Assembly: GCA_965216635.1 (NCBI GenBank)
Contig: OZ244188.1
Span: forward strand, 219,205-283,204
DNA length: 64,000 nt
From: a bacterium
GTDB taxonomy: Bacteria > SAR324 > XYD2-FULL-50-16 > G965216635
Direction of reading: 5' to 3'
Shown: in pieces, positions 17,945 to 42,664 of the stretch
Position numbering within the stretch: the stretch's first letter is position 1
Layout: each line of letters begins with the position of its first letter
Program-made: the position numbers and the translations under genes
The notes under the pieces: generated by a model
The model's input: the letters and a program-made list of their open reading frames with translations, nothing else
Told to the model about the DNA's origin: nothing
The model's database searches: none

Positions 17945-18577
17945 ATGTATCAAAAAAAAGTTTATTTTTTAATTCTTTTGGTTGGGTTTTTCAGCACTTC
18001 TTTAGTTTTTAGCTGGGATAAGGAGTTTTTTGAAAATATTGAGCAACCTATTGCATTTCCTCATAAACTGCATACCGTCAACAATGGTATAAGCTGTGAG
18101 TATTGCCATTCTTCGGCTCGTAATTCTATAAATGCGGGAATTCCTCCCGTGAGAACCTGTATCGGCTGTCATGCTTTAGTAAAAGGTCGTAGCGAAGAAC
18201 AGAAAAAAGAAATCCAAAAAATCACGGATTATTGGCAGAAAAAAGAGCCTATTCCTTGGAAAAAAATACACGATTTACCAGATTTTGTTTATTTTTCGCA
18301 TAAAAGACATATCAAAGCAGGTTTTGATTGCACGAATTGCCACGGAGATGTATCGGAAACCAAGACTCCTGTTCCCAAACCTCTTTATGGGAAGACTCCT
18401 TTGAGTATGGGTTGGTGTATTAGCTGTCATCTTGACGATCATCCAGTGGATAAAAATGGCAAAATAATCACTCTTCCTCGTTTGACGCGTGGGGGAATAA
18501 GGCAGTATGATAAGCCGACTCCAAAAGCGGTTGGTGTAAAAAATGGGAGTTTGGATTGTTTAGTTTGCCACAAATGA
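17945..18577 (+). CDS. actA: Alternative complex III subunit A, pentaheme cytochrome c
   Basis: Five CxxCH motifs (CEYCH, CIGCH, CTNCH, CISCH, CLVCH), N-terminal membrane anchor, position upstream of actB. Confidence 0.8.
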   Translation: MYQKKVYFLILLVGFFSTSLVFSWDKEFFENIEQPIAFPHKLHTVNNGISCEYCHSSARNSINAGIPPVRTCIGCHALVKGRSEEQKKEIQKITDYWQKKEPIPWKKIHDLPDFVYFSHKRHIKAGFDCTNCHGDVSETKTPVPKPLYGKTPLSMGWCISCHLDDHPVDKNGKIITLPRLTRGGIRQYDKPTPKAVGVKNGSLDCLVCHK

Positions 18578-18637
18578 GAATCTTTGAATTAGATATTAAA
18601 CTTTGCATAACGCTAAAGATTTTAATAAAATAGAAAA

Positions 18638-20014
18638 ATGAAATATTTAAGTTTTTCATTAGAAAATTATAAAGGGATTAAAAAATTTTCAATTAATGTG
18701 GATCCAAACCAACCTATCTCGCTGGTAGGATTGAACGAGAGCGGTAAAACTACTATTTTAGAAGGTATAGACCATATAGGAAAACATTGTAAGCAATTAT
18801 CAACAAATAAGTTTCGGCAATTACTGAATAATGGAGAATTGGCAAAAGTAAGACCAAAAAAATTACCAGGTGTTTTTTTTAGTGATGAGATTAAATTTGC
18901 GTGTAAAGTTGTATGTGAAGAAAAAGTTTGCGAAATATCTTTTATCTATACTTTAGAAAAAGATAAAACCGCAGGCTACAAAGTGTTTTTTGATAAAGAG
19001 GAATTGAATTTTAAAGATGCTGATGTATTGGAAAAAATAAATAAATTTAGCGAAGAAATGCCAGAAATTATTTATTATTCTGATTTTACTCTTGAAGTTC
19101 CTCAAGAAATATTTTTTCATACAAATACTTATAAAAAAAAACAAACTCCAGGTATGTTGGCAAGTTTAGAAAGAGAAAATAAGAAATCCAATAACCCAGA
19201 ATGGCAAAAAATTTTACAGGATATAACGGATTCTCTATATTCTGAGGACGAAAAAGTGCTTTTTCAAGATGATATTGTAGATTATTTGGACGGTGACAAT
19301 ACTGGGGATGAAAATAGTTTTAGGGATAAGTTAACAGGTTTTAGCAGACATATAAACCAAAAAATCACCAAAAAATGGTTGCAAAGCCTACCAAAAAAAT
19401 CTTCTTTAAAAGAAATTGAATTTGTTTGTAATACAATGGAAAAAAATGCAAACACAAGAGAGTTTGCTTTTAAAGTTATCTCTAATGATGACGCTACATT
19501 TGATTTATCGGACAGATCTAAAGGCTGTAGGTGGTTTTTTGCTTTTATGTTATTTACAGAGTTTAGAAAATATAGAAAACAAAATACAATTTTTTTATTA
19601 GATGAGCCTGCTTCTAATTTACACTCTTATGTTCAAGAAAAAGTTATCCACGCTATTAATGAATTATGCGACGAAAAGACAGGCTCTATTGTTTTATATT
19701 CTACCCACTCTCCTTATTTACTAGATATAGAAAACGTAGAAACTATGTATCTTGTAGAAAATATCAATGCCTCTTCTGAGGTTAGGGAAGCAAGAATAGA
19801 AGTCAATTTATACACAGAAAACACTCGGGCAAGCAAGAAAGGAGAAGCGAAACCTATCTCTGATTATTTTCAGTTAAACTTGCAAAAAGTAATGAAATAT
19901 TTTGAAAAAAAAAATACTCCTAAAAAAATCGGAGCTATTGGTAAAAAATTTTTAGAAAATACAAGAAATATTAAAAATATAGCAGATGTGATTGAGTTTT
20001 CTAAGAATTTGTAA
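18638..20014 (+). CDS. Standalone ABC/OLD-family-type ATPase (AAA_15/AAA_21-like) inserted between actA and actB
   Basis: Walker A LVGLNESGKTTILEGI at the N-terminus; Walker B/D-loop IFLLDEPASNLH and H-loop YSTHSPYLLD near the C-terminus; no nuclease domain evident; 458 aa. Confidence 0.6.
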   Translation: MKYLSFSLENYKGIKKFSINVDPNQPISLVGLNESGKTTILEGIDHIGKHCKQLSTNKFRQLLNNGELAKVRPKKLPGVFFSDEIKFACKVVCEEKVCEISFIYTLEKDKTAGYKVFFDKEELNFKDADVLEKINKFSEEMPEIIYYSDFTLEVPQEIFFHTNTYKKKQTPGMLASLERENKKSNNPEWQKILQDITDSLYSEDEKVLFQDDIVDYLDGDNTGDENSFRDKLTGFSRHINQKITKKWLQSLPKKSSLKEIEFVCNTMEKNANTREFAFKVISNDDATFDLSDRSKGCRWFFAFMLFTEFRKYRKQNTIFLLDEPASNLHSYVQEKVIHAINELCDEKTGSIVLYSTHSPYLLDIENVETMYLVENINASSEVREARIEVNLYTENTRASKKGEAKPISDYFQLNLQKVMKYFEKKNTPKKIGAIGKKFLENTRNIKNIADVIEFSKNL

Positions 20015-20045
20015 TTTTTTGTTTATGATTTAAATATTAAAAAAA

Positions 20046-23000
20046 ATGTCCCATAATAATATTAAAAACAACAAAATAAAAAGAAGAGATTTTTTCAAAA
20101 TAGCTGCGACCAGTGGCGCTGCTGTAGCTGTAGCCAGCTGTAATAATGACCCTGTAGAAAAAATACTCCCTTCTTTATTGCCTCCAGACAATTACCAAAC
20201 TGGTGTAGCTTTACATTTTGCTTCTGTATGCCAAGAATGTCCTTCTCAGTGCGGCATAGTAGTCAAAACTCGCGAAGGTAGGGCTATTAAAATTGAAGGC
20301 AACCCTAATCACCCTCTCAATCAAGGCAAACTTTGTGCTATAGGACAATCTGCTTTGCAAGGTTTATACAGTCCTAATCGCATTAAAAAAGCGACCCAAA
20401 AAGGCAAACAGCTAGATTTAGCAACAGCCAAAAACGAATTTTATGGCAAAATAAAACGTCTAGTCGCAGAAAACAGAGGCAAAGAAATTCTGTTTATTAG
20501 CCCCGCTGGAGATAGCAGTCTGCAAAGAATGACTACTAAAATTATTTCCCGTCTTGGAGCCTCCCAAATTCAGTTGGACTTGAGTTCTGCTAATTCCATC
20601 AAAAACGCAAACAAAATTTTGTACGGGAAAAACGAAGTTCCAGATTACCAATTTTCAAAAGCAAACTTTTTACTCAATTTTGGAGCAGATTTTTTGGAAG
20701 GCTGGCTTAATGTGATGAAAAATTCTAGAGAATTTGCCGAATTTCATTCTTACAAAAGAAAAAACAAAAACGAGTATGTGCATATTTCACCTCATCTTTC
20801 TACGACTGGTGTACAAGCAGACGATTGGATAAACTGCCCTTCCAAAGCAGAAGAAGCGATTGCACTCGCTTTGGTAGCCCGTCTGGCAGCTAGCAATTCT
20901 TCTCTTTCTGCAGCGGAAAAAAGGATTATCCGTAGCTATACTAAAAACCACAACATTGCCGCTGTGGCGAAAAAATACCAGCTAGATGCAAAAAAATTAG
21001 AGCAGATTGCCAAAAAACTAGCTACTAAAAGTAGCCTGATTATTGGAGGCGGTAATGCTACTTCCAACGGAGAGCAAACAAAACTGCAAATAGCGATTGC
21101 TCTTTTGAACTATCTTACTGGAAATACAAATCTAAACTTTGGAGCAGATTATAAATTTGGAGGCAGTAGCTTTGCAGAAATCAAGAAGGCTGTTCAAAAA
21201 ATAAAAAATAAAAAATATAGCCTAGTCGTAATTTTAGAGTTAAACCCTGCTTATATTTTTTCTATTTTCTCCGAATGGTCGGATAAAAAAGAAATTCAAG
21301 GAAAAGTTCCCATAGTGAGTTTGTCTCTGTCTCATAGCGAGACCACCGAGCAAGCGGATTTAGTAATTCCCATCACTTCCAGTTTTGAAAATTGGGGAGA
21401 TAGTTTTGCTGCCAATGGAATTTACGCTTTGCAGCAACCAGTAATGGCAAAGTTGCCGGGTTTTGAAGCAGAGCCTTTGGGAGATATTTTGCTTGGTTTG
21501 ACAAAAGAATTAGGCTGGAGCGGAGATAATTTTGAAGCTGCTGATTTTAAAAATTATTTAAGAAGTCAATGGAGAGGGCTACAAACCCAACTGAAATATG
21601 TAGGCACTTTTGAAATGTTTTGGATAGCTGCTTTGAAAAAAGGAGGGATTTTTCAAAATTATACTCCACAAAGAGCGAGTTTAAAAACCAATGCTTTGGC
21701 ACAGCTTAACGCTAGCGAAACAAAAACAGCTAAAGGCATTTCTTTAATGGTCCTAAATTCTAATTTGCATTCTAACGACGGCAGAACGGGGGATAGATAC
21801 TGGCTTTTAGAAATTCCCCATCCTTTAACGCAGGTCGTTTGGGATTCTTGGCTAGAAATTAACCCCGATAAAGCACAAGAATTAGGTATTCAACATTTAG
21901 ACGAAGTGGAAGTTACTACTTCTGCGGGCAGTGTCAAATTAGCTGCCTATATTTATGATTTTATAGATAAAAATACAGTTGCCATTCCAGCGGGCATGGG
22001 TAGAAGTTTGAAATTTCCTAACTATTCTTCCAGAAGAAACAGTATTTTACCATTCAAAGGTGGGCATAAAAGGACAAACCTTGTAGAAAAAAAGGTAGGC
22101 TTGAATCCTTTTGAATTGATTCCTTTTGCGACTGATGATTCTGGAGAGCTGATTTTTTCTGCAGAAAATATTAGTCTTAAAAAGACTGGAAAAAAATCTT
22201 TTTTGGTCAGCAGCGATGGGCAGTATAAAGACGATTCCAAAGCTCTTATTGCTGATACACCTACTGGTTACGGAGATAGAAGCCAAAAAGGAAGGCATTT
22301 GATTAGGTCAGTTTCTTTGAAGGAATTGAATTCTGGCAAAATCCACAAAGAAGGACACCAACTCAAAGATAGATTTTATACTACCGATAGACAAAACACC
22401 CACGATTTTTATAAGGAAAAAAGGGACGGTTTAGATAATCATATTTTTGGAATAAAGGGAAGTAAAACAGGAAAATACTACGACCCCTACAAGTTTGAAA
22501 TGAGTATAGATTTAGATAAATGCACGGGTTGTTCTGCTTGTGTGGTTGCCTGCTACGCCGAAAATAATATTGCAGTGGTCGGTAAAGAAAGACAGGCTAT
22601 CGGCAGGGAAATGTCTTGGCTTAGAATAGAAAGATACTTAGACAAAGATAAAAAAACCGGAAAAATCCAAGCGCTTTTATCGCCGCAGATGTGTCAACAG
22701 TGCGGCAACGCAGGTTGCGAAGCAGTCTGCCCCGTTTATGCAACTTACCACAACCCTGATGGACTCAACGCACAGATTTACAACCGTTGCGTTGGCACTA
22801 GATATTGTGCCAATAACTGCGTTTATAAACAAAGAAGATTTAACTGGAGAAGCTATAGTTTTCCATCTCCTTTGCATTACCAACTTAACCCCGATGTTAC
22901 TGTTCGCGACAAAGGAGTAATGGAAAAATGCACCTTTTGTGTGCAAAGAATTGTAGCTGCAAAAGATAAGGCTAAGGACGATAACCGAATTGTTTTTGAC

Positions 23001-23180
23001 GGAGAAATCAAAACAGCGTGTCAGCAAACCTGTCCGACAGAGGCAATTGTTTTTGGCAATGCGATGGATAAAAAATCTTTGCTTACAAAAACAAAAAAAG
23101 ATATTCGCGGCTATCACCAACTAGAAGAATTGAATTTTCAACCTGGGGTTACCTATCTCAGTAAAATAAAAAGAGGGTAA
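20046..23180 (+). CDS. actB: Alternative complex III subunit B (molybdopterin-oxidoreductase-like domain fused to 4Fe-4S ferredoxin domain)
   Basis: Tat signal KRRDFFKIAATSGAAVAVASC. 1044 aa. C-terminal Cys clusters CTGCSACVVAC, CQQCGNAGCEAVCP, CVGTRYCANNC and CTFCVQRI. Confidence 0.85.
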   Translation: MSHNNIKNNKIKRRDFFKIAATSGAAVAVASCNNDPVEKILPSLLPPDNYQTGVALHFASVCQECPSQCGIVVKTREGRAIKIEGNPNHPLNQGKLCAIGQSALQGLYSPNRIKKATQKGKQLDLATAKNEFYGKIKRLVAENRGKEILFISPAGDSSLQRMTTKIISRLGASQIQLDLSSANSIKNANKILYGKNEVPDYQFSKANFLLNFGADFLEGWLNVMKNSREFAEFHSYKRKNKNEYVHISPHLSTTGVQADDWINCPSKAEEAIALALVARLAASNSSLSAAEKRIIRSYTKNHNIAAVAKKYQLDAKKLEQIAKKLATKSSLIIGGGNATSNGEQTKLQIAIALLNYLTGNTNLNFGADYKFGGSSFAEIKKAVQKIKNKKYSLVVILELNPAYIFSIFSEWSDKKEIQGKVPIVSLSLSHSETTEQADLVIPITSSFENWGDSFAANGIYALQQPVMAKLPGFEAEPLGDILLGLTKELGWSGDNFEAADFKNYLRSQWRGLQTQLKYVGTFEMFWIAALKKGGIFQNYTPQRASLKTNALAQLNASETKTAKGISLMVLNSNLHSNDGRTGDRYWLLEIPHPLTQVVWDSWLEINPDKAQELGIQHLDEVEVTTSAGSVKLAAYIYDFIDKNTVAIPAGMGRSLKFPNYSSRRNSILPFKGGHKRTNLVEKKVGLNPFELIPFATDDSGELIFSAENISLKKTGKKSFLVSSDGQYKDDSKALIADTPTGYGDRSQKGRHLIRSVSLKELNSGKIHKEGHQLKDRFYTTDRQNTHDFYKEKRDGLDNHIFGIKGSKTGKYYDPYKFEMSIDLDKCTGCSACVVACYAENNIAVVGKERQAIGREMSWLRIERYLDKDKKTGKIQALLSPQMCQQCGNAGCEAVCPVYATYHNPDGLNAQIYNRCVGTRYCANNCVYKQRRFNWRSYSFPSPLHYQLNPDVTVRDKGVMEKCTFCVQRIVAAKDKAKDDNRIVFDGEIKTACQQTCPTEAIVFGNAMDKKSLLTKTKKDIRGYHQLEELNFQPGVTYLSKIKRG

Positions 23181-23231
23181 ACATCAAATTTTGCCTATGC
23201 TTTGTCTAACGCCTAATTTAAAAATAAAAAA

Positions 23232-23921
23232 ATGGTAGAAGTGAATCTAGAACACAAATCGGATGAGCAATTTGATAAAGAGTTGAGTGAAAAAAAAGTT
23301 ACCCCTAACCTACAAAATATAGGTTATTTACCTTGGATTGGAAAGGATTATGCTGACTTGCCTGACAAAAATAAAATTTTTATTCTTGGCGAAAGTGTTT
23401 ATAATGGTTGGAATCCTGATAAAAACGCTTCTAGAGATATAATAAATGGTCACGCAATAAAGACAAATCCTAGTCGTCTTTTTAGAAATATGAGTTGGGC
23501 TATTTGTGGAGAAAAAAAAAAGAAAGAGTTAAATCCAAAAGAGTTTTGGAGTAAAGTTTGTTTTAATAATTTGGTGCAAACTAAAATGAAAACTAAGAAG
23601 TATAGACCTTCTACAAGTGATTATGAAAATGGAACTGAATATATTGCAAAACAAATAGATATATTAAAACCTGCTTTAGTTATTTGTTTTAATAATTCGG
23701 ATGTAGCTAATTCTTTTAAAGAAATATTTGCTGACGCTAAATTAGAAGTTAAAGAAAAAGTAGGTAGAATAAAACCAAAAATACTAACAGCAAACAAGCT
23801 AAAAATATTATTTATTAAACACGCTAGTAGTTATTTTAGTTGGAGCAAATGGAATGAGTTTATAAATAAAAATGCAAAAGAAAATATTGATTGCTTTCAA
23901 TCATTAGAAAATACAAACTAA
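23232..23921 (+). CDS. Hypothetical protein (cargo between actB and actC)
   Basis: 229 aa, no confident family. Weak resemblance to uracil-DNA-glycosylase-superfamily motifs (ILGESVY...; HASSYFS). Confidence 0.3.
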   Translation: MVEVNLEHKSDEQFDKELSEKKVTPNLQNIGYLPWIGKDYADLPDKNKIFILGESVYNGWNPDKNASRDIINGHAIKTNPSRLFRNMSWAICGEKKKKELNPKEFWSKVCFNNLVQTKMKTKKYRPSTSDYENGTEYIAKQIDILKPALVICFNNSDVANSFKEIFADAKLEVKEKVGRIKPKILTANKLKILFIKHASSYFSWSKWNEFINKNAKENIDCFQSLENTN

Positions 23922-23930
23922 GTTTTAAAA

Positions 23931-24062
23931 TTAAAAAATGCTAACCTACGAAAAAATTGATAATGATTTTTTATAATTTATGCTAGAATGTATTTTTAAT
24001 AAACTAAAAAACCAAAATGAATAAAACTATAATCACTTTTTGCGATAAAGGAGGCGGACTGC
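23931..24062. repeat. Duplicated actC 5' end (about 35 bp incl. ATG) plus about 95-bp element-end sequence, copy 1
   Basis: aaaaaatgctaacctacgaaaaaattgataatgat + tttttataatttatgctagaatgtatttttaat...gcgataaaggaggcggactgc; compare real actC start at 27583-27620. Confidence 0.8.
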
Positions 24063-24139
24063 CTTAAAACTAAATTTTGTGCTTTTAAAATTAAAGTTAT
24101 AGACTGTGCTATACTGCAAAATAAAAGATAAATATTATT

Positions 24140-24619
24140 ATGGAAAAACAAAATGTATTGAGTGTGGCGGATTTTTTTATCACAGAAGTTGATAAAAAGT
24201 ATGGTGTAGATAATTTAAAATTAAACAAAATAGCCTATATCTCTTTAGGATTTTCACTATCTATACGGAATTTTGATTTATTTTCTGAAGATGTAGAAGC
24301 TTGGAATTGGGGTCCGGTAATTCCAGAATTGTATTATTCTTTTAAAGAATATGGCTCTAGGATTATTACTAAGCCTTCTGAAAGAGAAAATTCAAGTGAG
24401 ATAAAAGATGAAGATACTTTGGGTTTGTTGAATCTAGTAAAAGATCTTTATCAAAGTAAGAGTGGGTTAGAAATTATGGAATTGACTCATGTAAAAAACA
24501 CACCTTGGGATTATTGTTATGATGGAGAAAAAAATACAATTATAGATAAGAATATTATTAAAGATTACTATGATATTCTTATAAAAAACTTAAAAAAAAG
24601 TAATATTCTTATAGATTAG
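24140..24619 (+). CDS. Panacea-domain (DUF4065, SocA/PanA-like) antitoxin
   Basis: AWNWGPVIPELYYSFKEYGS matches the W.GPV....Y hallmark of DUF4065. Paralogous to the 195-aa protein at 39866..40453 (shared NLKLNKIAY, EAW.WGPVIPE.Y). Confidence 0.7.
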   Translation: MEKQNVLSVADFFITEVDKKYGVDNLKLNKIAYISLGFSLSIRNFDLFSEDVEAWNWGPVIPELYYSFKEYGSRIITKPSERENSSEIKDEDTLGLLNLVKDLYQSKSGLEIMELTHVKNTPWDYCYDGEKNTIIDKNIIKDYYDILIKNLKKSNILID

Positions 24620-24623
24620 TTTT

Positions 24624-25031
24624 ATGGTAAAATGTAATACTAAAGAAAAATTTTTATACTCAAAAGTTAGTGATGATAGTTCTGTAAGTGAATCCAAAGA
24701 AAAATTTAAAGCATCTGCTCCGATCAAGACAGAGATAAGTAAAGAATTTGAAGAGACGATAAGTAAAGAATTTGAATTGCTATATAACAATAGATTTAAA
24801 CAAGATACAGAATTAAGTAAAGATTTCTTTTACTTTGCTAAAGAAATTACTGGTTGGTGGATATTGATTTTATTTATAGTCTTATTGTGGCAATTATTTT
24901 TACCATTTGAAGGATACGGACAACGACTTTCTGATATTCAATTTTCTGTATTATTCAGCACTACTACTGTAACAGTGCTTGGTTTTTGGGGAATAGTTGG
25001 TTTGTATTTATTTCCTAAAAAAGGAAAATAA
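24624..25031 (+). CDS. Small membrane protein, candidate toxin partner of the Panacea antitoxin
   Basis: 135 aa, starts 4 bp after the antitoxin stop. Soluble charged N-terminal half, then two TM helices (WWILILFIVLLWQLF; VLFSTTTVTVLGFWGIVGLYLF). Confidence 0.45.
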   Translation: MVKCNTKEKFLYSKVSDDSSVSESKEKFKASAPIKTEISKEFEETISKEFELLYNNRFKQDTELSKDFFYFAKEITGWWILILFIVLLWQLFLPFEGYGQRLSDIQFSVLFSTTTVTVLGFWGIVGLYLFPKKGK

Positions 25032-25047
25032 AAAATAATTTTAATAA

Positions 25048-25177
25048 ACAAAAAATGCTAACTTACGCACAAATTGATAAGGATTTTTTATAATTTATGC
25101 TAGAATGTATTTTTAATGAACTAAAACCAAAATGAATAAAACTATAATCACTTTTTGCGATAAAAGAGGCGGACTGC
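25048..25177. repeat. Duplicated actC 5' end plus element-end sequence, copy 2
   Basis: aaaaatgctaacttacgcacaaattgataaggat (identical to real actC start) + ttttttataatttatgctagaatgtatttttaatgaac...gcgataaaagaggcggactgc. Confidence 0.85.
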
Positions 25178-25610
25178 AGAAAACCAGAATTTGTGATATT
25201 TTTGAAATAAGGATTGTTACTTACTCAACAGTTTAATAGCAATACTTTCAGGCGTAGAGTTATTTATTTTGACATCTGGAATTTGGATTGCTTACTCTAG
25301 TATTCAATCCCATAAAAACAGGCAAATTTAACCATTTTTGCACAAAAATCGCCTTTTTTAATTATTTAATTCTAAAAAAAAACTTTTTGTAAATGCTTTA
25401 AAAATCTTATAAAATTCCTTGAATTAAGGAAAATATTGAATTTTTGTGAAAAAAAAGTTACTATTTTAATAAATTTATTAAAAACAATAAACGGATTTTA
25501 AGACTTTTTGGGGCGGTTGTTAAGAATGGTTTTAAATTTCCTTCGTTAAAGTTTTATATCATAAAAACTAAAACAGACATATTTCTTTGTCTGTGCGTAA
25601 TAAATAAAAT

Positions 25611-26132
25611 ATGGAACAAAGAAAAGTTGAGTTTCTTTTAGAATATCAACAAAGAATAGATCAAAAAGCTAGAGAGAACTCTAGTGAGTTGATTTCTAAC
25701 GGAACCATTGAACACGCTAGAATCTTAATTGCTTCTATTTTTAGTGTTGCAAATAAAAAAATAGAAATATTTACAGGATTTCTTAATCCAATAATCTACA
25801 ATGATAAAAAAATCATTGACAGCGCCTTTAATTTTCTAAAAAAACAAAACACTAAAATAGAAGTTGTAGTGCAAGAAAATGACCACTCATTAGGTTTGAA
25901 TGAATTTGTGAATGAAGCTAAGAATAATAAACAATTTGTTCTTAAAGAAGCAAATGAAATTGATAAAAATGAACAGTATCATTTTATAGTTGCTGATAGT
26001 AAATCATTCCGTTATGAACCTGATAAAGCAAAAAATATAGGTATAGGTTGTTTTAACAAACCAGCATTTGCTGAGAAACTTAATAATCGCTTTCAAGAAA
26101 TATTTAAACAAGCAAAAACGCTGGAAATTTAA
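25611..26132 (+). CDS. Hypothetical protein (cassette cargo)
   Basis: 173 aa, no recognisable family; preceded by an about 400-bp AT-rich leader with a hairpin acagacatatttctttgtctgt. Confidence 0.35.
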   Translation: MEQRKVEFLLEYQQRIDQKARENSSELISNGTIEHARILIASIFSVANKKIEIFTGFLNPIIYNDKKIIDSAFNFLKKQNTKIEVVVQENDHSLGLNEFVNEAKNNKQFVLKEANEIDKNEQYHFIVADSKSFRYEPDKAKNIGIGCFNKPAFAEKLNNRFQEIFKQAKTLEI

Positions 26133-26147
26133 AAGAAAGAATATTCT

Positions 26148-26714
26148 ATGGATTTTTTTTATATTATAGAAATTTCTTTTTTATTAAATATAGCTTATAG
26201 AGAGCTAAAATCTTCTCGTTGGAAGCAAGAATTTGAGAAAAAATATTCTACTTATTTCAACGCATTTGAGATGACAGAATCTATTGGTAGAGATATTCTA
26301 AAAAAAGATAATCTGTTCCAACCAGAAGGAAAACAGTTTGTTGAGGGATTAGAAAAAGGGGAAAAGAATGCTTGGGAGAACAAATTTTTTATTCCTTTTT
26401 ATTACCGCAATTTTATTTGCAAAGAATGGAGTAAAAAATTTACTGGTTGTATTATATTAGGTATAATTATTATTATAGGAATATTGTATTTTTTTGCAGG
26501 ATATAATTATTATATTTACATAAAAAACACTTCCTTTGTCGCATTTTTAATCTTTTCTATGTGCCCTTTTATTTTTAGTTTTTTTGATAATCGGTGTTAT
26601 AATTATTTATTTGGTGATAATGGAAGAATAGAATTTATTATAAAAGAAATAACAAGAAAAAATAAATCTATGATGGATGATGAGCTAGATTTACCAGAAA
26701 GAGCATTAAAGTAA
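26148..26714 (+). CDS. Hypothetical membrane protein (cassette cargo)
   Basis: 188 aa; central hydrophobic segments (FTGCIILGIIIIIGILYFFAG; SFVAFLIFSMCPFIFSFF); 16 bp after the preceding ORF. Confidence 0.35.
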   Translation: MDFFYIIEISFLLNIAYRELKSSRWKQEFEKKYSTYFNAFEMTESIGRDILKKDNLFQPEGKQFVEGLEKGEKNAWENKFFIPFYYRNFICKEWSKKFTGCIILGIIIIIGILYFFAGYNYYIYIKNTSFVAFLIFSMCPFIFSFFDNRCYNYLFGDNGRIEFIIKEITRKNKSMMDDELDLPERALK

Positions 26715-26799
26715 TTAACTTACCAACCTCTTATATCCTTACCATTTTTATACCGATTCCTTAAAAATACTCTTCAATAAAAAAACAAATAAATGAAAA

Positions 26800-27048
26800 A
26801 TGGCTAGTTTAGCAGAAAAAGAGGTAGATGCAAATTTTGATTATTTTCAAACACTACTTCCAGAATTAAAACAAACTCACTTTGAAAAATTTGCTTTATT
26901 GCATAAAAAAAAAATTATTGAATTTTTTGATACTGCTAGAGATGCAGCAAAGTTTGGGATAGTAAAATTCGGAAAAGGCAATTTTTCTGTGCAACAAGTA
27001 GCTGATAGACGTGTTGATTTAGGATATCAAGGACATGTCCTCTTTTAG
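26800..27048 (+). CDS. Small hypothetical protein overlapping the downstream aspartic protease gene
   Basis: 82 aa; 14-nt overlap with 27035..27538 suggests translational coupling. Confidence 0.35.
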   Translation: MASLAEKEVDANFDYFQTLLPELKQTHFEKFALLHKKKIIEFFDTARDAAKFGIVKFGKGNFSVQQVADRRVDLGYQGHVLF

Positions 27049-27538
27049 GCAAACTTTAAATAAAAACAGGCAGTTTATTATTACTGTAAAAGTTATTGAG
27101 TCACCTTTGGAAAAAGAGAAATACAAAGACGGCACAGCACAAAGATTTCTTATTAAGGCGGAAACTCAAAAAGCTTTGATTGATACAGGTGCTAATACGA
27201 CTAGTATATCTCAAAAATATGCGAATGAATCAGGTTTAGTTGCTACTGGAAAAACCATTACAAGTACTGCTGGAGGAGATTGTAGAGAAAATTTATTTTT
27301 GATTGATATTGCTATTCCGATTACTCAAACTGCATTAAAACCTTTTACAGCAAAAGACGGTAGTCAGCAGTTTAAACCATTTATAATTGGAGAAGAACAT
27401 TGGGCTCACGCAGAACTTGAGGTTACTTCTTTTGCAGTTGGTGAAGGATATTATGGTTTTGATATTCTTTTAGGTATGGATATACTATCTCAAATGCATA
27501 TTACTATGTTTCATAATGAGATTATTATGTCTTTTTAA
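27035..27538 (+). CDS. Retropepsin-like (clan AA) aspartic peptidase
   Basis: ALIDTGANTTSIS contains the D-T/S-G-A catalytic motif in a hydrophobic-hydrophobic-D-T-G-A context; about 170 aa, typical of single-domain bacterial retropepsins. Confidence 0.55.
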   Translation: MSSFRQTLNKNRQFIITVKVIESPLEKEKYKDGTAQRFLIKAETQKALIDTGANTTSISQKYANESGLVATGKTITSTAGGDCRENLFLIDIAIPITQTALKPFTAKDGSQQFKPFIIGEEHWAHAELEVTSFAVGEGYYGFDILLGMDILSQMHITMFHNEIIMSF

Positions 27539-27588
27539 AAAATTGTAAAATTTATTACACAAGTTTTCTTAATTTTAAAAAATAAAAA

Positions 27589-28935
27589 ATGCTAACTTAC
27601 GCACAAATTGATAAGGATGTTTTAAAATCAATGGAGCCACCCGGCAAAAAATGGTTTTTGTGCATCGCAGTTTCTTTGACCGCTTTGGCTATGGGGATTT
27701 ATGCCCTTTATATCCAAGTTGCCGGAGGACTAGAGATTAGCGGAATTTCGCATCCTATTGGTTGGGGAGTTTATATTACTGACTTTGTTTTTTGGGTAGG
27801 TATTGCACACGCGGGAACCTTAATTTCTGCAGTGCTTTTTCTAACGCGAGCTCCTTACAGAACTTCTATCTATAGAACTGCAGAGGCGATGACAGTTTTT
27901 GCGGTAATGACGGCTGGGCTTTTTCCTATTATCCATGTAGGGCGGATTTGGAACGCCTACTGGTTAGTGCCTTATCCCAATCAAAGAGAGCTTTGGGTCA
28001 ATTTCAAATCTCCGCTCCTTTGGGATGTTTTTGCGGTTTCTACCTATATGTCGGTTTCCATTGCCTTTTTTATTGTAGGGTTGATTCCAGACTTTGCCAC
28101 AGTGCGAGATCGCACCAAAGGTTTGATGAAATTTTTTTACGGGTTTTTGGCATTAGGCTTTAGAGGCACCAATCACCAGTGGGTGCATTATTTGAGAGGC
28201 TACCTACTTTTTGCAGCACTGGCTACTCCTCTAGTTTTTTCCGTTCACTCCATAGTCTCTTGGGATTTTGCAATGTCTAGTATACCGGGCTGGCATACCA
28301 CAATTTTTGCTCCTTACTTTGTAGCAGGTGCGATTTTTTCGGGCTGTGCTATGGTCTTGACGATTGTGATTCCTATGAGAAAAATTTTTAGAGGCTTTGA
28401 AGAAATTATAAAAATAGAACACTTAGAGGCTTTGGGTAAACTGATTTTACTCACGGGAACGATTGTAACCTATTCTTACACCATAGAATTTTTTATTGCC
28501 TATTATAGCGGTAATCCTTACGAAAAAGCTATTTTTTGGTTTCGCCCTTTTGGAGAATTAAAGGGATTTTTCTGGTTGATGGTGCTTTGTAATTGTATTG
28601 GTCCCATTCCCCTTTGGAGAAAGAAAATTCGCACCAATCTCGCTGCTCTTTTTGTGATTTCTATTATTGTCAATGTAGGTATGTGGTTGGAAAGATTTAA
28701 CATAGTCGTCACTTCGCTGTCTCACGATTTTGTGCCTTTTGTTTGGAGCAACTACCAGTTTCAGTGGGGCGAAATTTGGATTACTATCGGTAGTTTTGGT
28801 TGGTTTTTCACTTGGTTTTTTCTATTTGTTAAAATTATGCCTTCTATGTCGGTTACAGAATTGAAGGAAGCATTGCCTCCAATGTTGCGAAAAGGTAAAA
28901 TGACACCTAGGCCAGTTTCTGGCTTCTATAAATAA
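27589..28935 (+). CDS. actC: Alternative complex III subunit C (NrfD/PsrC-like polytopic membrane subunit)
   Basis: 448 aa, about 10 TM helices, positioned between actB and actDEF. Confidence 0.8.
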   Translation: MLTYAQIDKDVLKSMEPPGKKWFLCIAVSLTALAMGIYALYIQVAGGLEISGISHPIGWGVYITDFVFWVGIAHAGTLISAVLFLTRAPYRTSIYRTAEAMTVFAVMTAGLFPIIHVGRIWNAYWLVPYPNQRELWVNFKSPLLWDVFAVSTYMSVSIAFFIVGLIPDFATVRDRTKGLMKFFYGFLALGFRGTNHQWVHYLRGYLLFAALATPLVFSVHSIVSWDFAMSSIPGWHTTIFAPYFVAGAIFSGCAMVLTIVIPMRKIFRGFEEIIKIEHLEALGKLILLTGTIVTYSYTIEFFIAYYSGNPYEKAIFWFRPFGELKGFFWLMVLCNCIGPIPLWRKKIRTNLAALFVISIIVNVGMWLERFNIVVTSLSHDFVPFVWSNYQFQWGEIWITIGSFGWFFTWFFLFVKIMPSMSVTELKEALPPMLRKGKMTPRPVSGFYK

Positions 28936-28937
28936 AT

Positions 28938-29080
28938 TAGAGACCTTTGAATTAGCGTTCTGTTTAGCCTATGCGTCGTTGAAAAAAATTTTTAACTCTT
29001 GAAATACTTGAGTATTCCTGCGAGCTAAATTTTTTTTTTGCCTTGCCTAGCCGTCACATAACGCAAATTCAAAGGTCTAT
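28938..29080. mobile_element. MITE-like repeat (about 143 bp) between actC and actD
   Basis: tagagacctttgaattagcgttctgtttagcctatgcgtcgttgaaaaa...ttgccttgcctagccgtcacataacgcaaattcaaaggtctat; clear inverted termini. Confidence 0.8.
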
Positions 29081-29097
29081 AAATTTTACTAAAAAAA

Positions 29098-29628
29098 ATG
29101 AATAAAAAATTTTGCGGAGTTTGGGCAACTTTTGAATATTTAGACGACTTTTGCAACAGCGTAAAAGATTTGCGTAGCAAAAATTTTAAAAAAATCACTA
29201 CCTATTCGCCTTGCCCTCGTCATGAGATTTTGGACGCTTTGGGTAATCCAGTGAGTAGAGTGCCTTTTTTCACTTTAGCGTTTGGAATTTTAGGAGTAAC
29301 CATAGCCTATACTTTAGCAAGCTGGATGTCGCTGGATTGGGTTTTACCAGTGTCTAATAAACCGATTGTGTCTCTTCCTCCGTTCACTATTATAGCTTTT
29401 GAATTAATGGTGCTTTTGGGAGCCTACGGCACTATGGTTGGAGTTGTTTTTTTGATAATCCGAGAAACTAGAAAATTTACTTTCCCGAAAAGTAATAAAT
29501 TCAAAAACTACGACAGATTTACCCACGATAGGTTTGGTTTGGTAGTGCGGTGCAAAAAAAAAGATATTAAAAAATTGATACAAATTGTCAAAATACATCA
29601 ACCAGAAGAAATCAACAATGAAAGTTAA
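29098..29628 (+). CDS. actD: Alternative complex III subunit D (small membrane subunit)
   Basis: 176 aa, two TM helices, operon position. Confidence 0.65.
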   Translation: MNKKFCGVWATFEYLDDFCNSVKDLRSKNFKKITTYSPCPRHEILDALGNPVSRVPFFTLAFGILGVTIAYTLASWMSLDWVLPVSNKPIVSLPPFTIIAFELMVLLGAYGTMVGVVFLIIRETRKFTFPKSNKFKNYDRFTHDRFGLVVRCKKKDIKKLIQIVKIHQPEEINNES

Positions 29629-30199
29629 AAAAAGATTTTTGGCTACAGTTCTTGCTATAGCTCTCTGCGGTTTGATTTTTACGGTTTCCGCTTATGGCAC
29701 TTCCACGATTTGGTCTTGGATGAAGGATATGTATAACCAACCGAGCATCAAACCTCAAGAAGAAGGTTCTTTTAAACATTTTCCTATTGGCTCTGTTACA
29801 ACAGAAGGCTTGCAAATTAGTAGTGATGGAGAAAAGCACTTAAAAGCAACAGATTTTACTTGGATAGCTGCCAGAAATAGTGTTGCACTAGCTCCCAAAA
29901 ATCCTCAAAAAGCAACGGCAGAATCTTTGAAGCAAGGAGAGTTTTTTTTTAATTCTTACTGTATTGCCTGCCACGGGGCAGATGGTAAATCAACCACTCC
30001 TGTAGCTCTTTTTAGAGGAGGAGTTATTCCTTTAGATTTGATTTTAACCGACCCTACTATTACCGACGGCTACCTTTTTTACAAAATTACTTATGGAGGT
30101 TTTGGAGATGTAGCTATGCCTCCTTTTGGCTATTCCATCACAGAAAAAGAAAGATGGCACATAGTAAATTATATAACCCATAGATGGCAGAACAAATGA
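29618..30199 (+). CDS. actE: Alternative complex III subunit E (monoheme cytochrome c)
   Basis: Single CIACHG heme motif. Signal peptide starts at MKVKKRFLATVLAIALC, so start placed at 29618 rather than track 29585 (either overlaps the actD stop). Confidence 0.7.
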   Translation: MKVKKRFLATVLAIALCGLIFTVSAYGTSTIWSWMKDMYNQPSIKPQEEGSFKHFPIGSVTTEGLQISSDGEKHLKATDFTWIAARNSVALAPKNPQKATAESLKQGEFFFNSYCIACHGADGKSTTPVALFRGGVIPLDLILTDPTITDGYLFYKITYGGFGDVAMPPFGYSITEKERWHIVNYITHRWQNK

Positions 30200-37663: not shown

Positions 37664-37737
37664 TAGCGATGGGGTGAATTGAACACCCGACCTTACGATT
37701 ATGAGTCGTACGCTCTAACCATCTGAGCTACATCGCC
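37664..37737 (-). tRNA. tRNA-Met (anticodon CAT; could be Ile2-lysidine type)
   Basis: Reverse complement reads GGCGATG-TA-GCTC-AGATGGTT-AGAGC-G-TACGA-CTCATAA-TCGTA-AGGTC-GGGTG-TTCAATT-CACCC-CATCGCT-A: full cloverleaf, T-loop TTCAATT, anticodon CAT. Confidence 0.85.
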
Positions 37738-37908
37738 TTTGCAATTGTTTTAGTCTAATCTGAATAATTTTCCAAGAAAAATTTTAAACAGAAATAGGAG
37801 CTTTAATACTTGGATGAAACTGATAATTTTCTAAAGCAAAATAATCAAGATAAACTTTTAGGGATAAGTTTTGAATTTCTACTTGCATATTTTAAACTTT
37901 TTGAAAAG

Positions 37909-37982
37909 TAGCGATGGGGTGAATTGAACACCCGAACTTATGATTATGAGTCGTATGCTCTAACCATCTAAGCTACATCGCC
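37909..37982 (-). tRNA. Diverged duplicate of tRNA(CAT), likely pseudo-tRNA
   Basis: Same 74 nt with 6 substitutions, including a C-A mismatch in the anticodon stem (ATACGA/TCATA). Sits in a duplicated block with a folB 5' fragment. Confidence 0.5.
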
Positions 37983-39865: not shown

Positions 39866-40453
39866 CTAAATCCCTAAATCTTTTAGCATAGACTTAAAAT
39901 CACTATAACTTTTTGGTTCAGGTTCGGATAATAAAGCCACTATAGTTTCTCTGTTGGGAAGTCCAAATGATGGTATAGGATAATATGCTTTTATTTCTTC
40001 TTTGGGTATTTTGATATTTTTAATGTTTGGTTTATACAATCTTGCCCAAGGACTGTTTTCATCGTGAAATTCGTCATAAAAATACTTTTTACTCATTGAG
40101 GAATAAATTTCTATAACAGTATCTAGTATTTCTTCAGTCTTCCTCTGTAGGCTACTACTGGCATTATCTATTATAGATGGAATAGTTTTTTTACCATTTT
40201 TTAAAAAATAATATTTTTCTTTTATATTTTTATTACCATAATTCTTAAATTTACAATAAACCTCAGGTATGACAGGCCCATGTTCCCAAGCCTGAATTTC
40301 ATCTTTAAATAATTCTAAATTGTAATAAGCAGAACCTATTCCATAAGCACTGTAAACAAATTTGTTTAATTTAAAATTGTCTATCTCTTTAACTTTATCA
40401 ATAAAATAATTTGCTATTTGGACTGCGGTGTATTTATTATTTTCAGTTTCCAT
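39866..40453 (-). CDS. Panacea-domain (DUF4065) antitoxin, immediately upstream of the YafQ-like toxin
   Basis: QAWEHGPVIPEVYCKFKNYGN hallmark; 195 aa; its stop abuts the toxin start. Confidence 0.7.
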   Translation of the reverse strand: METENNKYTAVQIANYFIDKVKEIDNFKLNKFVYSAYGIGSAYYNLELFKDEIQAWEHGPVIPEVYCKFKNYGNKNIKEKYYFLKNGKKTIPSIIDNASSSLQRKTEEILDTVIEIYSSMSKKYFYDEFHDENSPWARLYKPNIKNIKIPKEEIKAYYPIPSFGLPNRETIVALLSEPEPKSYSDFKSMLKDLGI

Positions 40454-40740
40454 TTTTAGTATCGGGCAATTTCTATAAATATTTTTTAGGTTTTGGAATA
40501 AAGGATATATTTTGAAAATCGTCGCTTATATCAACAAATAAGTGATGATTTTCTTCTTTTATCAGCTCAAATATTCTCCAATTTTCTCTTTTTTTTGATC
40601 TCTGTAGATATTTTTTTTTAAGTATCTTTTTTCCCCTAATTTATGAAAGTCGTATTTGTTATCAAACATAAATTTTATAGTTGGTGATATTGAGTTTATT
40701 TAACTAAAAATAATAGTAAAAGTCAAGGTTTTATAAAAAA

Positions 40741-42569: not shown

Positions 42570-42601
42570 AATAATTTTTAAAGTTTAGGTTTATAATACT
42601 A

Positions 42602-42664
42602 TAGACCTTTGAATTTGCGTTATGTTTAGCCTTGCCGTCGCATCAGCGAAATTCAAAGGTCTAT
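42602..42664. mobile_element. Short MITE (63 bp)
   Basis: tagacctttgaatttgcgttatgtttagccttgccgtcgcatcagcgaaattcaaaggtctat. Confidence 0.8.

What the first reader, a model, noticed from the sequence alone, without database searches (positions are those of the whole stretch)
25611..27538. Four-gene cargo cassette of unknown function containing a retropepsin-like aspartic protease
The 173-aa and 188-aa (membrane) proteins have no recognisable family. They are followed by an 82-aa protein whose gene overlaps a 167-aa clan-AA aspartic peptidase gene (LIDTGANTT). Their position inside a cassette array that otherwise carries TA/defense modules makes a defensive or addiction function plausible. The protease may process or activate the small partner protein.
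Basis: inference. Interest (0 to 1): 0.6.

Follow-up and report, generated by a model that had tools for sequence, protein, structure and literature searches.

The report
Mobile retropepsin protease gene pair
The last two of the four genes form a self-contained 0.8-kb module, a small DUF5678-like protein plus a retropepsin-type aspartic protease, which moves between bacterial phyla, lodges inside housekeeping operons and probably acts as a toxin-antitoxin or defence pair; the other two genes are a separate, later insertion.

Summary
All four ORFs, the 14-nt overlap and the DTGA motif are real. The "four-gene cassette" is not one unit. A low-GC 4.4-kb block sits inside an alternative complex III operon, between actB and actC. 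Copies of the actC 5' end partition the block. In sister genomes the 82-aa/167-aa pair occupies this site alone, as an 856-bp unit flanked by 49-nt actC repeats.

The same pair, small gene first, lies in at least eight unrelated contexts. These include ilvC|pssA, ubiX|ubiD and RM/TA islands in Gammaproteobacteria, Spirochaetes and Thermodesulfobacteriota MAGs. Only about 0.8 kb is shared across phyla, at 81-85% nucleotide identity. DTGA is kept in 12 of 12 pairs, and both genes are under purifying selection.

The small protein is a divergent DUF5678-like fold with a conserved, disordered C-terminal tail. The 173-aa protein belongs to Pfam DUF7931 (probably a PLD-like fold). The 188-aa protein has two predicted TM helices.

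Best reading, inferred and not shown: a TA-like or abortive-infection module with the protease as effector and the small protein as its inhibitor. The closest known system is the untested PADLOC candidate PDC-M08.

The parts
26800..27048 (+). Gene for the 82-aa small partner, a divergent DUF5678-like protein. The model shows helix 4-27, a beta-beta-alpha-beta core at 31-66, and a disordered but conserved C-terminal tail (V/I)(D/E)LG(Y/F/W)Q.
   Evidence: ORF. A profile search finds 151 homologs, all unnamed. AF2 model has pLDDT 82.8. BFVD fold matches include DUF5678 proteins, TM 0.58-0.70. The distant homolog in L021 hits Pfam DUF5678 at 6.8e-7. Five of 54 family members give weak DUF5678 hits.
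27035..27538 (+). Gene for the 167-aa cytosolic retropepsin-like (clan AA) aspartic protease. It has one DTGA per chain and an LGMD motif near the C-terminus.
   Evidence: Pfam gag-asp_proteas 1.6e-9 and Asp_protease_2 1.4e-5, both above gathering scores. The best solved relatives are DDI1 retropepsin domains. DTGA is present in 12 of 12 orthologs. No hydrophobic segment.
27035..27048 (+). 14-nt overlap of the two genes (ATGTCCTCTTTTAG), implying translational coupling.
   Evidence: The same 14-nt overlap occurs in 10 of 12 pairs from different genomes. The exceptions are a 5-nt gap in L016 and a 26-nt overlap in L018.
27182..27193 (+). Codons for the catalytic D50-T-G-A.
   Evidence: Read from the sequence. 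These columns are invariant in alignment A1 and present in all 12 pairs.
25611..26132 (+). Gene for the 173-aa DUF7931 protein. It probably has a PLD-like fold but lacks the HKD lysine. It belongs to a separate, later-acquired module.
   Evidence: Pfam DUF7931, 32 bits vs cut-off 27. 1,219 representatives at E<=1e-3. Conserved residues N30, H35, Y63, H124, D129 and R134. Best PDB profile hit is Nuc endonuclease 1byr, E 0.31 over the full length. Three of 54 members give weak PLDc_2 hits. GC 0.276.
26148..26714 (+). Gene for the 188-aa protein with two predicted C-terminal TM helices. It starts 15 nt after the DUF7931 gene. No family was found.
   Evidence: ORF. No Pfam, NCBIfam or PADLOC hit. 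Hydrophobic segments at 94-125 and 127-148. GC 0.249.
25036..25099 (+). Direct repeat DR2, a copy of the actC leader, ATG and about 12 codons. It marks the left end of the unit that holds the four genes.
27570..27633 (+). Direct repeat DR3, the genuine actC leader and 5' coding end. It marks the right end of the unit.
23919..23982 (+). Direct repeat DR1, the actC 5' copy in front of the SocA/Panacea unit.
23213..23234 (+). Partial repeat DR0. Only the actC leader is present, fused to the ATG of the UDG-like gene.
   Evidence: Local alignment score 29, against a maximum of 27 in 300 shuffles.
25084..25192 (+). Shared cassette leader 'X' (TTTTTTATAATTTATGCTAGAAT...). A second copy lies at 23967-24077. 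Together with TTGATA in the DR it forms a promoter-like site.
   Evidence: TTGATA, 16 nt, TATGCT at 25074-25101 and 23957-23984
25193..25610 (.). 418-nt non-coding spacer, GC 0.24. No ORF of 40 aa or more, no Rfam match.
20046..23180 (+). actB (1044 aa, molybdopterin-like plus Fe-S subunit of alternative complex III). It is the left flank of the insertion block.
   Evidence: Homologous to the L002/L003 gene at 83% nt identity.
27589..28935 (+). actC (NrfD-like membrane subunit), the right flank. Its 5' end is the repeated sequence.
   Evidence: actD (Pfam ActD, 5e-39) follows at 29098-29628.
24140..25031 (+). Neighbouring unit: a SocA/Panacea antitoxin gene (159 aa) and its 135-aa 2-TM partner.
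   Evidence: The same unit lies proximal to actC in L009.
23232..23921 (+). Neighbouring unit: a 229-aa UDG-superfamily-like gene. The match is weak and falls below the Pfam cut-off.

Best explanation
The finding contains two things.

(1) Genes 3 and 4 (26800-27538) are an autonomous, horizontally mobile two-gene module of about 0.8 kb. The first gene encodes a small DUF5678-like protein. The second, translationally coupled to it, encodes a cytosolic retropepsin-type aspartic protease. With one DTGA per chain, this protease must act as a homodimer. The module carries no recombinase. In this lineage it has sat between actB and actC of the alternative complex III operon since before the window organism and its sister species diverged. 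It is co-oriented with the operon and can be read through from it.

Proposed mechanism (inferred): this is a type-II-like toxin-antitoxin or abortive-infection pair. The small protein is made first and binds the protease. Its conserved, disordered C-terminal tail, (V/I)(D/E)LG(Y/F)Q, probably lies in the substrate cleft as an inhibitor or sacrificial substrate. When the small protein is depleted, by loss of the locus, stress or phage-induced shut-off, the protease is freed and cleaves cellular proteins, arresting growth.

(2) Genes 1 and 2 (DUF7931 protein plus a 2-TM protein) are a distinct and more recent low-GC insertion into the same hotspot. They are probably another two-gene toxin/effector module.

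The hotspot grows by recombination at repeated copies of the actC 5' end. Each repeat restores an intact actC start.

The confidence given is for the whole statement including the inferred mechanism. The architectural part (autonomous mobile pair, separate from genes 1 and 2) taken alone I would put at about 0.85.
For: Shown:
- The pair stands alone between actB and actC in sister genomes, as an 856-bp unit flanked by 49-nt repeats of the actC 5' end. In L009 the order of the pair and the SocA unit is swapped.
- The pair occurs in unrelated settings: ilvC|pssA-leuA (L008, L010), ubiX|ubiD (L011), five MAGs of three phyla, and next to a type ISP RM enzyme. Neighbours also include HipA+HTH and GmrSD-like/HNH plus ORF6N genes.
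- A gammaproteobacterial MAG and a spirochaete MAG share only 807 bp, at 85% identity. L011 and L014 share only 835 bp, at 81%.
- The pair has lower GC than its flanks in all five MAG loci.
- DTGA is present in 12 of 12 pairs and the 14-nt overlap in 10 of 12.
- Identities of the two proteins co-vary (r = 0.75). dN/dS is 0.13-0.40 for both genes.
- Divergence of the pair between the window and L002 (79%) equals that of the flanking act genes (79-87%). L008 and L010 are collinear over 3.4 kb at 75%.
- Orphan small genes exist. In L001 an IS cuts the protease after codon 24. L020 and the phage contig L021 have the small gene only. Every relative found with the protease as query carries the small gene.
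- All nine proteases hit PADLOC PDC-M08B.
- A source annotation records peptide evidence for the L008 protease.
- A second paralog of the small gene lies in the same genome.
- Gene GC differs between the two modules: 0.31-0.32 for the pair, 0.28 for DUF7931 and 0.25 for the TM gene.

Inferred: toxicity, inhibition through the tail, and the trigger.
Against: No experiment or complex model links the two proteins physically. The protease model was poor (pLDDT 58). No multimer prediction was possible.

The small protein has no recognisable DNA-binding domain, unlike most type II antitoxins.

The conserved tail motif also occurs in homologs that lack a protease (L020, L021). It may therefore serve another purpose.

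The PDC-M08B match covers only the region around DTG (36 of 127 profile positions). The small protein does not match PDC-M08A.

Retention for a long time inside housekeeping operons under purifying selection would also fit a host-beneficial function.

Neighbourhood data cover about 15 loci, not the whole family of 151. No context data were obtained for DUF7931 or the TM protein.
Confidence: 0.45

Rival explanations
1. One reading: all four genes form one functional cassette (DUF7931, TM protein, small protein, protease) that acts together. For example, the protease might mature a membrane effector.
For: In this genome the four genes lie between two copies of the actC repeat, with no repeat between the TM gene and the small gene. 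All four are co-oriented with short spacers.
Against: None of the roughly 15 other loci holding the pair contains a DUF7931 or TM188 homolog. Sister genomes have the pair alone at the same site. GC differs between the two halves. The DNA shared across phyla stops at the ends of the pair.
Confidence: 0.07
2. The roles are reversed or the relation is one of processing. The small protein is the effector or pro-toxin, and the protease activates it, or continuously destroys it, by cleaving the conserved C-terminal tail.
For: The tail is conserved, disordered and hydrophobic (alignments). Retropepsins typically cleave extended hydrophobic segments (established knowledge). The tail motif persists in homologs without a protease. 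That would fit an activity intrinsic to the small protein.
Against: Orphan small genes survive after the protease is lost or disrupted by an IS (L001, L020, L021). This is unlikely if the protease were needed to detoxify the small protein. The order small gene first, larger enzyme second is the usual antitoxin-toxin order.
Confidence: 0.15
3. The pair serves the host: a regulatory or quality-control protease with its adaptor (DDI1-like), or an accessory of alternative complex III. It would not be selfish or defensive.
For: The pair is retained vertically under purifying selection inside housekeeping operons in two lineages. A source annotation records peptide evidence. The closest solved relatives are DDI1 protease domains.
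Against: The host operon differs between lineages: respiration, branched-chain amino acid and phospholipid synthesis, quinone synthesis. The phyletic distribution is patchy, with near-identical 0.8-kb units in different phyla and GC below the host's. Neighbours elsewhere are RM and TA genes. Only 10 protease clusters were found by the word-indexed search of 5.8 billion protein clusters.
Confidence: 0.1
4. The block is an integron-type cassette array, and the genes are ordinary integron cassettes captured by an integrase.
For: The block holds several short, promoter-poor, co-oriented units separated by repeats, and it includes TA modules, as chromosomal integrons do.
Against: No ORF of 240 aa or more in the 64-kb window matches an integrase or transposase family. 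The repeats are copies of the actC start, not attC-type imperfect palindromes. In other genomes the pair has only 14-48 nt of conserved flank, too little for an attC site.
Confidence: 0.03

Closest known systems
PADLOC phage-defence candidate PDC-M08, a two-gene cassette FAM_03167>>FAM_00414 from 'guilt-by-embedding' (Payne et al., bioRxiv 10.1101/2024.01.29.577857)
   Same: Both are two-gene cassettes whose second gene encodes a short retropepsin-like protein. All nine protease homologs here match the PDC-M08B profiles (best E 1.9e-7). Both were noticed because they are embedded inside other operons.
   Different: The match covers only the DTG region (about 36 of 127 profile positions). The protease here is about 40 aa longer. 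The small partner matches no PDC-M08A profile. PDC-M08 is itself untested. The host operons here are housekeeping operons, not defence systems.
Type II toxin-antitoxin modules
   Same: A small upstream gene overlaps a larger downstream enzyme gene. The pair is patchily distributed and horizontally transferred, with several paralogs per genome. It sits beside other TA and RM genes. Orphan copies of the small gene exist, and one protease gene is disrupted by an IS.
   Different: I found no described TA toxin that is a retropepsin-type aspartic protease (literature searches returned none). The small protein has no HTH, RHH or AbrB-type DNA-binding domain. Toxicity and neutralisation are untested.
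DDI1 and retroviral-type retropepsins (clan AA)
   Same: The protein has a DTGA catalytic motif, a C-terminal hydrophobic-Gly-x-D motif (LGMD) and one catalytic Asp per chain. DDI1 retropepsin domains are the best solved-structure matches.
   Different: It is a stand-alone 167-aa bacterial protein with no UBL or UBA domains and no Gag/Pol context. It has about 24 extra residues between DTGA and LGMD relative to DDI1 (inferred from the alignment). It is encoded with a dedicated small partner.
TIGR02281 / TIGR03698 bacterial and archaeal clan AA proteases
   Same: They share the same domain and the DTGA signature. The window protein gives a weak TIGR02281 hit (3.8e-5).
   Different: The score of 23.9 bits is far below the 57.95 cut-off. 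The TIGR02281-type example met here (L017) has an N-terminal TM helix, lies next to hemE and has no small partner.
SocA/Panacea (PanA) antitoxin modules with small membrane toxins
   Same: One such module is the immediate neighbour in the same hotspot. It has the same layout as the DUF7931 + 2-TM pair: a soluble protein followed by a 2-TM protein.
   Different: The DUF7931 protein has no Panacea domain. Its pairing with a TM protein could not be checked in other genomes.

Membership tests
Retropepsin-like aspartic protease (clan AA) | Catalytic Asp-Thr/Ser-Gly(-Ala) motif | tested here: met
   D50-T-G-A in the window protein. The motif is invariant in alignment A1 and present in 12 of 12 pairs.
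Retropepsin-like aspartic protease (clan AA) | Domain profile match above the curated threshold, and the second conserved motif (hydrophobic-hydrophobic-Gly) | tested here: met
   gag-asp_proteas 38.6 bits vs 28.2; Asp_protease_2 26.1 vs 24.3. LGMD aligns with the LLGLDML motif of DDI1.
Retropepsin-like aspartic protease (clan AA) | Homodimer with proteolytic activity | not testable with these tools
   The monomer model was poor (pLDDT 58). No multimer prediction or assay was available.
Type II toxin-antitoxin system | Two adjacent, co-transcribed small genes inherited as a unit and spread horizontally | tested here: met
Type II toxin-antitoxin system | Toxin arrests growth; antitoxin neutralises it by direct binding and is labile | not testable with these tools
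   Indirect evidence only: orphan small genes and an IS-disrupted protease gene.
Type II toxin-antitoxin system | Antitoxin carries a DNA-binding domain for autoregulation (usual, not universal) | tested here: not met
PADLOC candidate PDC-M08 | B component matches the PDC-M08B profile | tested here: inconclusive
   Nine of nine homologs match, best E 1.9e-7. The match covers only about 36 of 127 profile positions around DTG.
PADLOC candidate PDC-M08 | A component matches the PDC-M08A profile | tested here: not met
   No PDC-M08A hit for the window protein or for 54 family members at E<=1.
DUF5678 (Pfam PF18929) | Profile match above the gathering score | tested here: inconclusive
   The window protein gives no hit at E<=1. 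Five of 54 family members give weak hits, best 0.0038, and DUF5678 is the top family. The distant homolog in L021 passes (29.5 bits vs 23.2).
DUF5678 (Pfam PF18929) | Same fold as DUF5678 proteins | tested here: met
   Foldseek against BFVD: proteins named DUF5678 match with TM 0.58-0.62, probability 1.00. The best hit has E 8.8e-5 and TM 0.70.
DUF7931 (Pfam PF25559), for the 173-aa protein | Profile match above the gathering score | tested here: met
   32 bits vs 27. 53 of 54 aligned relatives match.
Phospholipase D / Nuc (HKD) superfamily, for the 173-aa protein | HxK(x)4D catalytic motif | tested here: not met
   The conserved segment is H124-F-x-V-x-D129, with no lysine at +2. Fold-level similarity is only suggested: Nuc 1byr at E 0.31, and PLDc_2 hits in 3 of 54 members.
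Integron gene cassette | Adjacent IntI integrase with an attI site | tested here: not met
   No recombinase family was found in any ORF of 240 aa or more in the 64-kb window.
Integron gene cassette | attC imperfect palindrome at the 3' end of each cassette | tested here: not met
   The repeats between units are direct copies of the actC 5' end plus a shared leader. Elsewhere only 14-40 nt follow the protease stop within the shared unit.
Alternative complex III subunit or accessory | Conserved with act genes wherever the complex occurs | tested here: not met
   The pair lies in other operons and islands in other taxa. Within this lineage the gene content between actB and actC varies.

The most novel reading that the evidence does not exclude
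The pair founds an undescribed class of toxin-antitoxin or abortive-infection module in which the effector is a retropepsin-type aspartic protease. The protease would be held in check by a DUF5678-like partner through a substrate-mimicking tail. The class spreads between phyla as a 0.8-kb recombinase-free unit that embeds co-directionally inside essential operons. This would give DUF5678 a function and give bacteria a relative of the retroviral protease that is used for suicide or defence. In addition, the actC-5' repeat architecture may reflect a cassette-capture route that regenerates the start of the downstream gene at each insertion.
Probability: 0.3. Interest if true: 0.7.

Novelty: new variant of a known kind. 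Interest (0 to 1): 0.5.

Why it matters
Proteases are emerging as effectors of bacterial immunity and addiction modules. Examples from general knowledge include Lit, CHAT and Lon-type proteases. My literature searches found no retropepsin-type aspartic protease described in that role. The nearest entry is an untested PADLOC candidate.

This module is small (0.75 kb of coding sequence), has a clear catalytic residue to mutate, and has a partner with a conserved tail. A toxicity-and-rescue or phage-challenge experiment is therefore straightforward. A positive result would assign a function to the DUF5678-like family and to a set of bacterial retropepsins.

The locus also shows how intergenic spacers of a respiratory operon can accumulate selfish or defence cassettes without breaking the operon. 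This matters for annotation: such genes should not be read as complex subunits. It also matters for understanding defence-gene hotspots that lack integrases.

Tried and rejected
- The protease structure prediction used only nine sequences and gave pLDDT 58. I judged it unusable and did not search folds with it.
- The metagenome scan with the small-protein alignment returned only two loci, one of them already known.
- Three alignment-based scans failed for lack of conserved columns.
No neighbourhood data exist for DUF7931 or TM188, or for the second paralog in this genome.
- tblastn against plasmids and phages found nothing for the protease, the small protein or DUF7931. No protease relative was found in IMG/VR.
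- Literature searches for retropepsin plus TA, PDC-M08, PF13650/PF13975 in bacteria, and DUF5678 gave nothing relevant.
- I considered a programmed +1 frameshift producing a Gag-Pro-like fusion, because the window has CTC TTT TAG G at the overlap. I rejected it. The protease ATG and the MSS N-terminus are invariant in alignment A1 and in 11 of the 12 pairs (L018 starts MPVI). The slippery context is not conserved, and L016 has no overlap.
- A degenerate actC repeat between the TM gene and the small gene was not significant against shuffles.
- No Rfam family or notable ORF lies in the 418-nt spacer. Promoter-like sites are no more frequent than in shuffles; terminator-like sites number 4 against about 1 expected, and 3 of the 4 lie on the minus strand.
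- L017 turned out to be a different, TM-anchored retropepsin family.
Full report
**1. Observation**

The last two overlap by 14 nt. The 167-aa product carries ALIDTGANTT. It passes the Pfam gathering scores of gag-asp_proteas and Asp_protease_2. Its best solved relatives are the retropepsin domains of DDI1.

Two details of the observation are wrong. First, the 173-aa protein does have a family. It matches Pfam DUF7931 (32 bits against a cut-off of 27), and an exhaustive HMMER search finds 1,219 related cluster representatives. Second, the surroundings are not a generic cassette array, as the next section shows.

**2. Where the genes sit**

The window is ordinary chromosome. It contains TRAP transporter, ferrochelatase, leuS, fatty-acid synthesis and thyA genes.

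Positions 17945-30199 are an alternative complex III operon:
- actA, a multihaem cytochrome, at 17945-18577
- actB at 20046-23180
- actC (NrfD-like) at 27589-28935
- actD at 29098-29628 (Pfam ActD, 5e-39)
- a cytochrome c gene after that

A block at 23181-27588 with GC 0.27 is wedged between actB and actC. The act genes have GC 0.36-0.40. The block holds seven co-oriented genes: a weak UDG-superfamily gene, a SocA/Panacea antitoxin gene with a 2-TM partner, and the four genes of the finding.

The block is partitioned by direct repeats of the actC start, that is, the A-rich leader, the ATG and about 12 codons. The copies lie at 23919-23982, 25036-25099 and 27570-27633; the last is the real actC start. 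A partial copy of the leader is fused to the ATG of the UDG-like gene.

Copies 1 and 2 continue into a shared ~110-nt leader, which I call 'X'. This leader also precedes the SocA unit of a related contig, and it precedes the protease pair in sister genomes. TTGATA inside the repeat, together with TATGCT/TAGAAT in X, makes a promoter-like site.

Pfam scans of every ORF of 240 aa or more in the 64 kb found no integrase or transposase. The repeats are not attC-like.

A further low-GC gene, an AAA_15/AAA_21 ATPase, sits between actA and actB. In a sister genome four small genes sit between actC and actD. The intergenic spacers of this operon are therefore an insertion hotspot in this lineage.

**3. 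The pair is the real unit**

Homologs of the 82-aa protein led to metagenome contigs of sister organisms, whose core act genes are 79-87% identical to the window at the nucleotide level. In these contigs the small gene and the protease gene alone lie between actB and actC. They form an 856-bp unit flanked by 49-nt direct repeats of the actC 5' end (L002, L003, L007). In L009 the order is pair, then SocA unit, then actC, which is the reverse of the window. None of these loci, nor any other fetched locus, contains a DUF7931 or TM188 homolog.

The same pair occurs in quite different places. In each locus the small gene comes first:
- between ilvC and pssA-leuA in two genomes that are collinear over 3.4 kb at 75% identity (L008, L010)
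- between ubiX and ubiD (L011)
- in two Gammaproteobacteria, two spirochaete and one Thermodesulfobacteriota MAG (L012-L016)
- beside a type ISP restriction enzyme (L018)

Neighbours in the MAGs include HipA plus an HTH protein, an ORF6N protein and a GmrSD-N/HNH protein.

A gammaproteobacterial MAG and a spirochaete MAG share nothing except 807 bp at 85% identity. That stretch runs from 48 nt upstream of the small gene to 14 nt past the protease stop. L011 and L014 share 835 bp at 81%. In L014 the homology ends exactly at a tRNA-Ala gene. In all five MAG loci the pair has lower GC than its surroundings.

So an ~0.8-kb two-gene unit without a recombinase has moved between phyla. It has then been kept for long periods. 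Its divergence between the window and L002 (79%) matches that of the flanking core genes. Both genes have dN/dS of 0.13-0.40 in six comparisons.

Within the window, the pair's GC (0.31-0.32) is intermediate between host genes and the other inserts (0.25-0.29). This fits an older arrival. The strong Shine-Dalgarno sequences seen upstream of the small gene in other hosts are replaced here by the A-rich leader typical of this genome's genes.

**4. The two proteins**

Protease. D-T-G-A is present in all 12 pairs compared, and the LGMD motif in almost all. The N-terminus MSS(F/L) and the C-terminus I(I/V)(M/I)SF are conserved in 11 of the 12 pairs; the most divergent pair, L018, differs at both ends. 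The protein has no hydrophobic segment or signal peptide. This sets it apart from the TM-anchored TIGR02281-type retropepsin met in L017. It scores far below the TIGR02281 and TIGR03698 cut-offs. With one catalytic Asp per chain, it must dimerise to be active; this follows from established knowledge of retropepsins. One source annotation records peptide evidence for the L008 homolog.

Small protein. A profile search finds 151 homologs, all unnamed, including a second paralog in the same 2.39-Mb genome outside the window. An AlphaFold2 model built on 54 sequences (pLDDT 82.8) shows a long N-terminal helix, a beta-beta-alpha-beta core and a disordered C-terminal tail. The motif (V/I)(D/E)LG(Y/F/W)Q in that tail is among the most conserved parts of the protein, and its codons vary synonymously between loci.

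Solved structures give no significant match. The viral structure library matches it to small phage proteins (E 8.8e-5, TM 0.70) and to proteins named DUF5678 (TM 0.58-0.62). A distant homolog on a phage contig passes the Pfam DUF5678 threshold. DUF5678 is the top, though weak, family among the 54 members. I therefore call it a divergent DUF5678-like protein. No literature on the function of DUF5678 was found.

The two genes co-vary in identity across loci (r = 0.75). They overlap by the same 14 nt in 10 of 12 loci.

**5. Mechanism**

What is shown: the pair is a co-inherited, translationally coupled, horizontally mobile module with an intact catalytic motif. It is under purifying selection and is found in TA/RM neighbourhoods or embedded co-directionally in operons.

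What I infer: it works like a type II toxin-antitoxin or abortive-infection module. The protease is the effector and the small protein is its inhibitor, most plausibly with the conserved disordered tail lying in the substrate cleft.

Three observations favour this polarity:
- The gene order is the usual one, small gene first.
- The small gene exists without the protease: L020, the phage contig L021, and L001, where an IS cuts the protease after codon 24.
- Every relative found with the protease as query has the small gene.

Four points count against the inference:
- There is no interaction evidence, and the protease model was too poor to use.
- The small protein has no DNA-binding domain.
- The tail motif persists in protease-less homologs.
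- Long retention could reflect a benefit to the host.

I rate it lower because orphan small genes persist.

A role in alternative complex III is rejected, because the host operon differs between lineages. An integron origin is rejected on the integrase and attC tests.

**6. The other two genes**

The DUF7931 protein has conserved N30, H35, Y63, H124, D129 and R134. Its family profile aligns full-length, though weakly (E 0.31), to the PLD-family endonuclease Nuc. Three of 54 relatives touch PLDc_2. The HxK(x)4D motif is not present. It probably has a PLD-like fold with altered chemistry.

Its gene is followed after 15 nt by the 188-aa gene. That product has a soluble N-terminal half and two TM helices. 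This layout resembles the SocA + 2-TM module next door. I could obtain no neighbourhood data for either gene because the quotas were exhausted and phage and plasmid searches were empty. That they form a second toxin/effector pair is therefore only a suggestion.

**7. Comparison and novelty**

The closest described entity is PADLOC candidate PDC-M08. It is a two-gene cassette (FAM_03167>>FAM_00414), one of 145 untested candidates found by 'guilt-by-embedding'. All nine proteases match PDC-M08B, but only around the DTG motif. The small partner does not match PDC-M08A. The pair works like a TA module, but membership cannot be claimed without toxicity data.

I class it as a new variant of a known kind, with moderate interest. 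It is a compact, testable candidate for a retropepsin-based addiction or defence module, and it shows recombinase-free cassette accretion inside an essential operon.

Noticed in passing
window 18638-20014 (+): A 458-aa AAA_15/AAA_21 (AbiEii/OLD-like) ATPase gene with GC 0.29 is inserted between actA and actB of the same operon. Sister contigs L002 and L003 have actA and actB adjacent.
   Followed up: partly
window 23213-23234, 23919-24077, 25036-25192, 27570-27633: The actC leader, ATG and about 12 codons are repeated at each unit boundary. Two copies also carry a shared ~110-nt leader whose junction with the repeat forms a promoter-like site (TTGATA, 16 nt, TATGCT). No recombinase lies in the window, and how such repeats arise is unexplained.
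   Followed up: partly
L002 12126-13276: In a sister genome four small genes (MORN_2-like, DrpB-like, a 75-aa gene, YidD) lie between actC and actD, where the window has none. Other spacers of the operon therefore also take up genes.
   Followed up: no
window 39866-46085 (-): A second low-GC island lies near thyA and two tRNA genes (37664-37982). It holds another SocA/Panacea gene (35% identical to the first), a GmrSD-type restriction enzyme, and a methylase / DpnII-like endonuclease / methylase set. No integrase was seen.
   Followed up: partly
window 62400-63633 (-): A DarT (ssDNA ADP-ribosyltransferase) gene and a DarT1-associated NADAR antitoxin gene form a pair just downstream of the fatty-acid synthesis genes.
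   Followed up: no
same genome, outside the window (protein P0092): A second small-protein paralog (85 aa, 44% identical) is encoded on the same 2,394,643-bp contig. Its neighbourhood could not be retrieved.
   Followed up: partly
L021 5478-6240: On an IMG/VR phage contig, a DUF5678-family homolog of the small protein is the last of three overlapping small genes just after the terminase gene. No protease follows. It could be a phage-borne mimic of the partner protein.
   Followed up: partly
L001 10248-10320: In a 1.36-Mb genome the small gene is intact, but the protease gene is cut after codon 24 by a high-GC IS element. The locus lies in an island with type I RM genes and several transposases.
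   Followed up: yes
L004 and L009 (whole contigs): Both metagenome contigs are near-perfect inverted duplications of themselves and are most likely assembly artefacts. Only one arm was used as evidence.
   Followed up: no
window 27040-27050: The overlap reads CTC TTT TAG G, a context in which tRNA-Phe could slip +1 at the stop codon into the protease frame. The context is not conserved in other loci, and the protease ATG is invariant.
   Followed up: yes
window 24734-24776: The 135-aa partner of SocA contains an exact 19-nt tandem duplication, 24 nt apart. It encodes a repeated ISKEFE peptide upstream of the protein's two TM helices.
   Followed up: no
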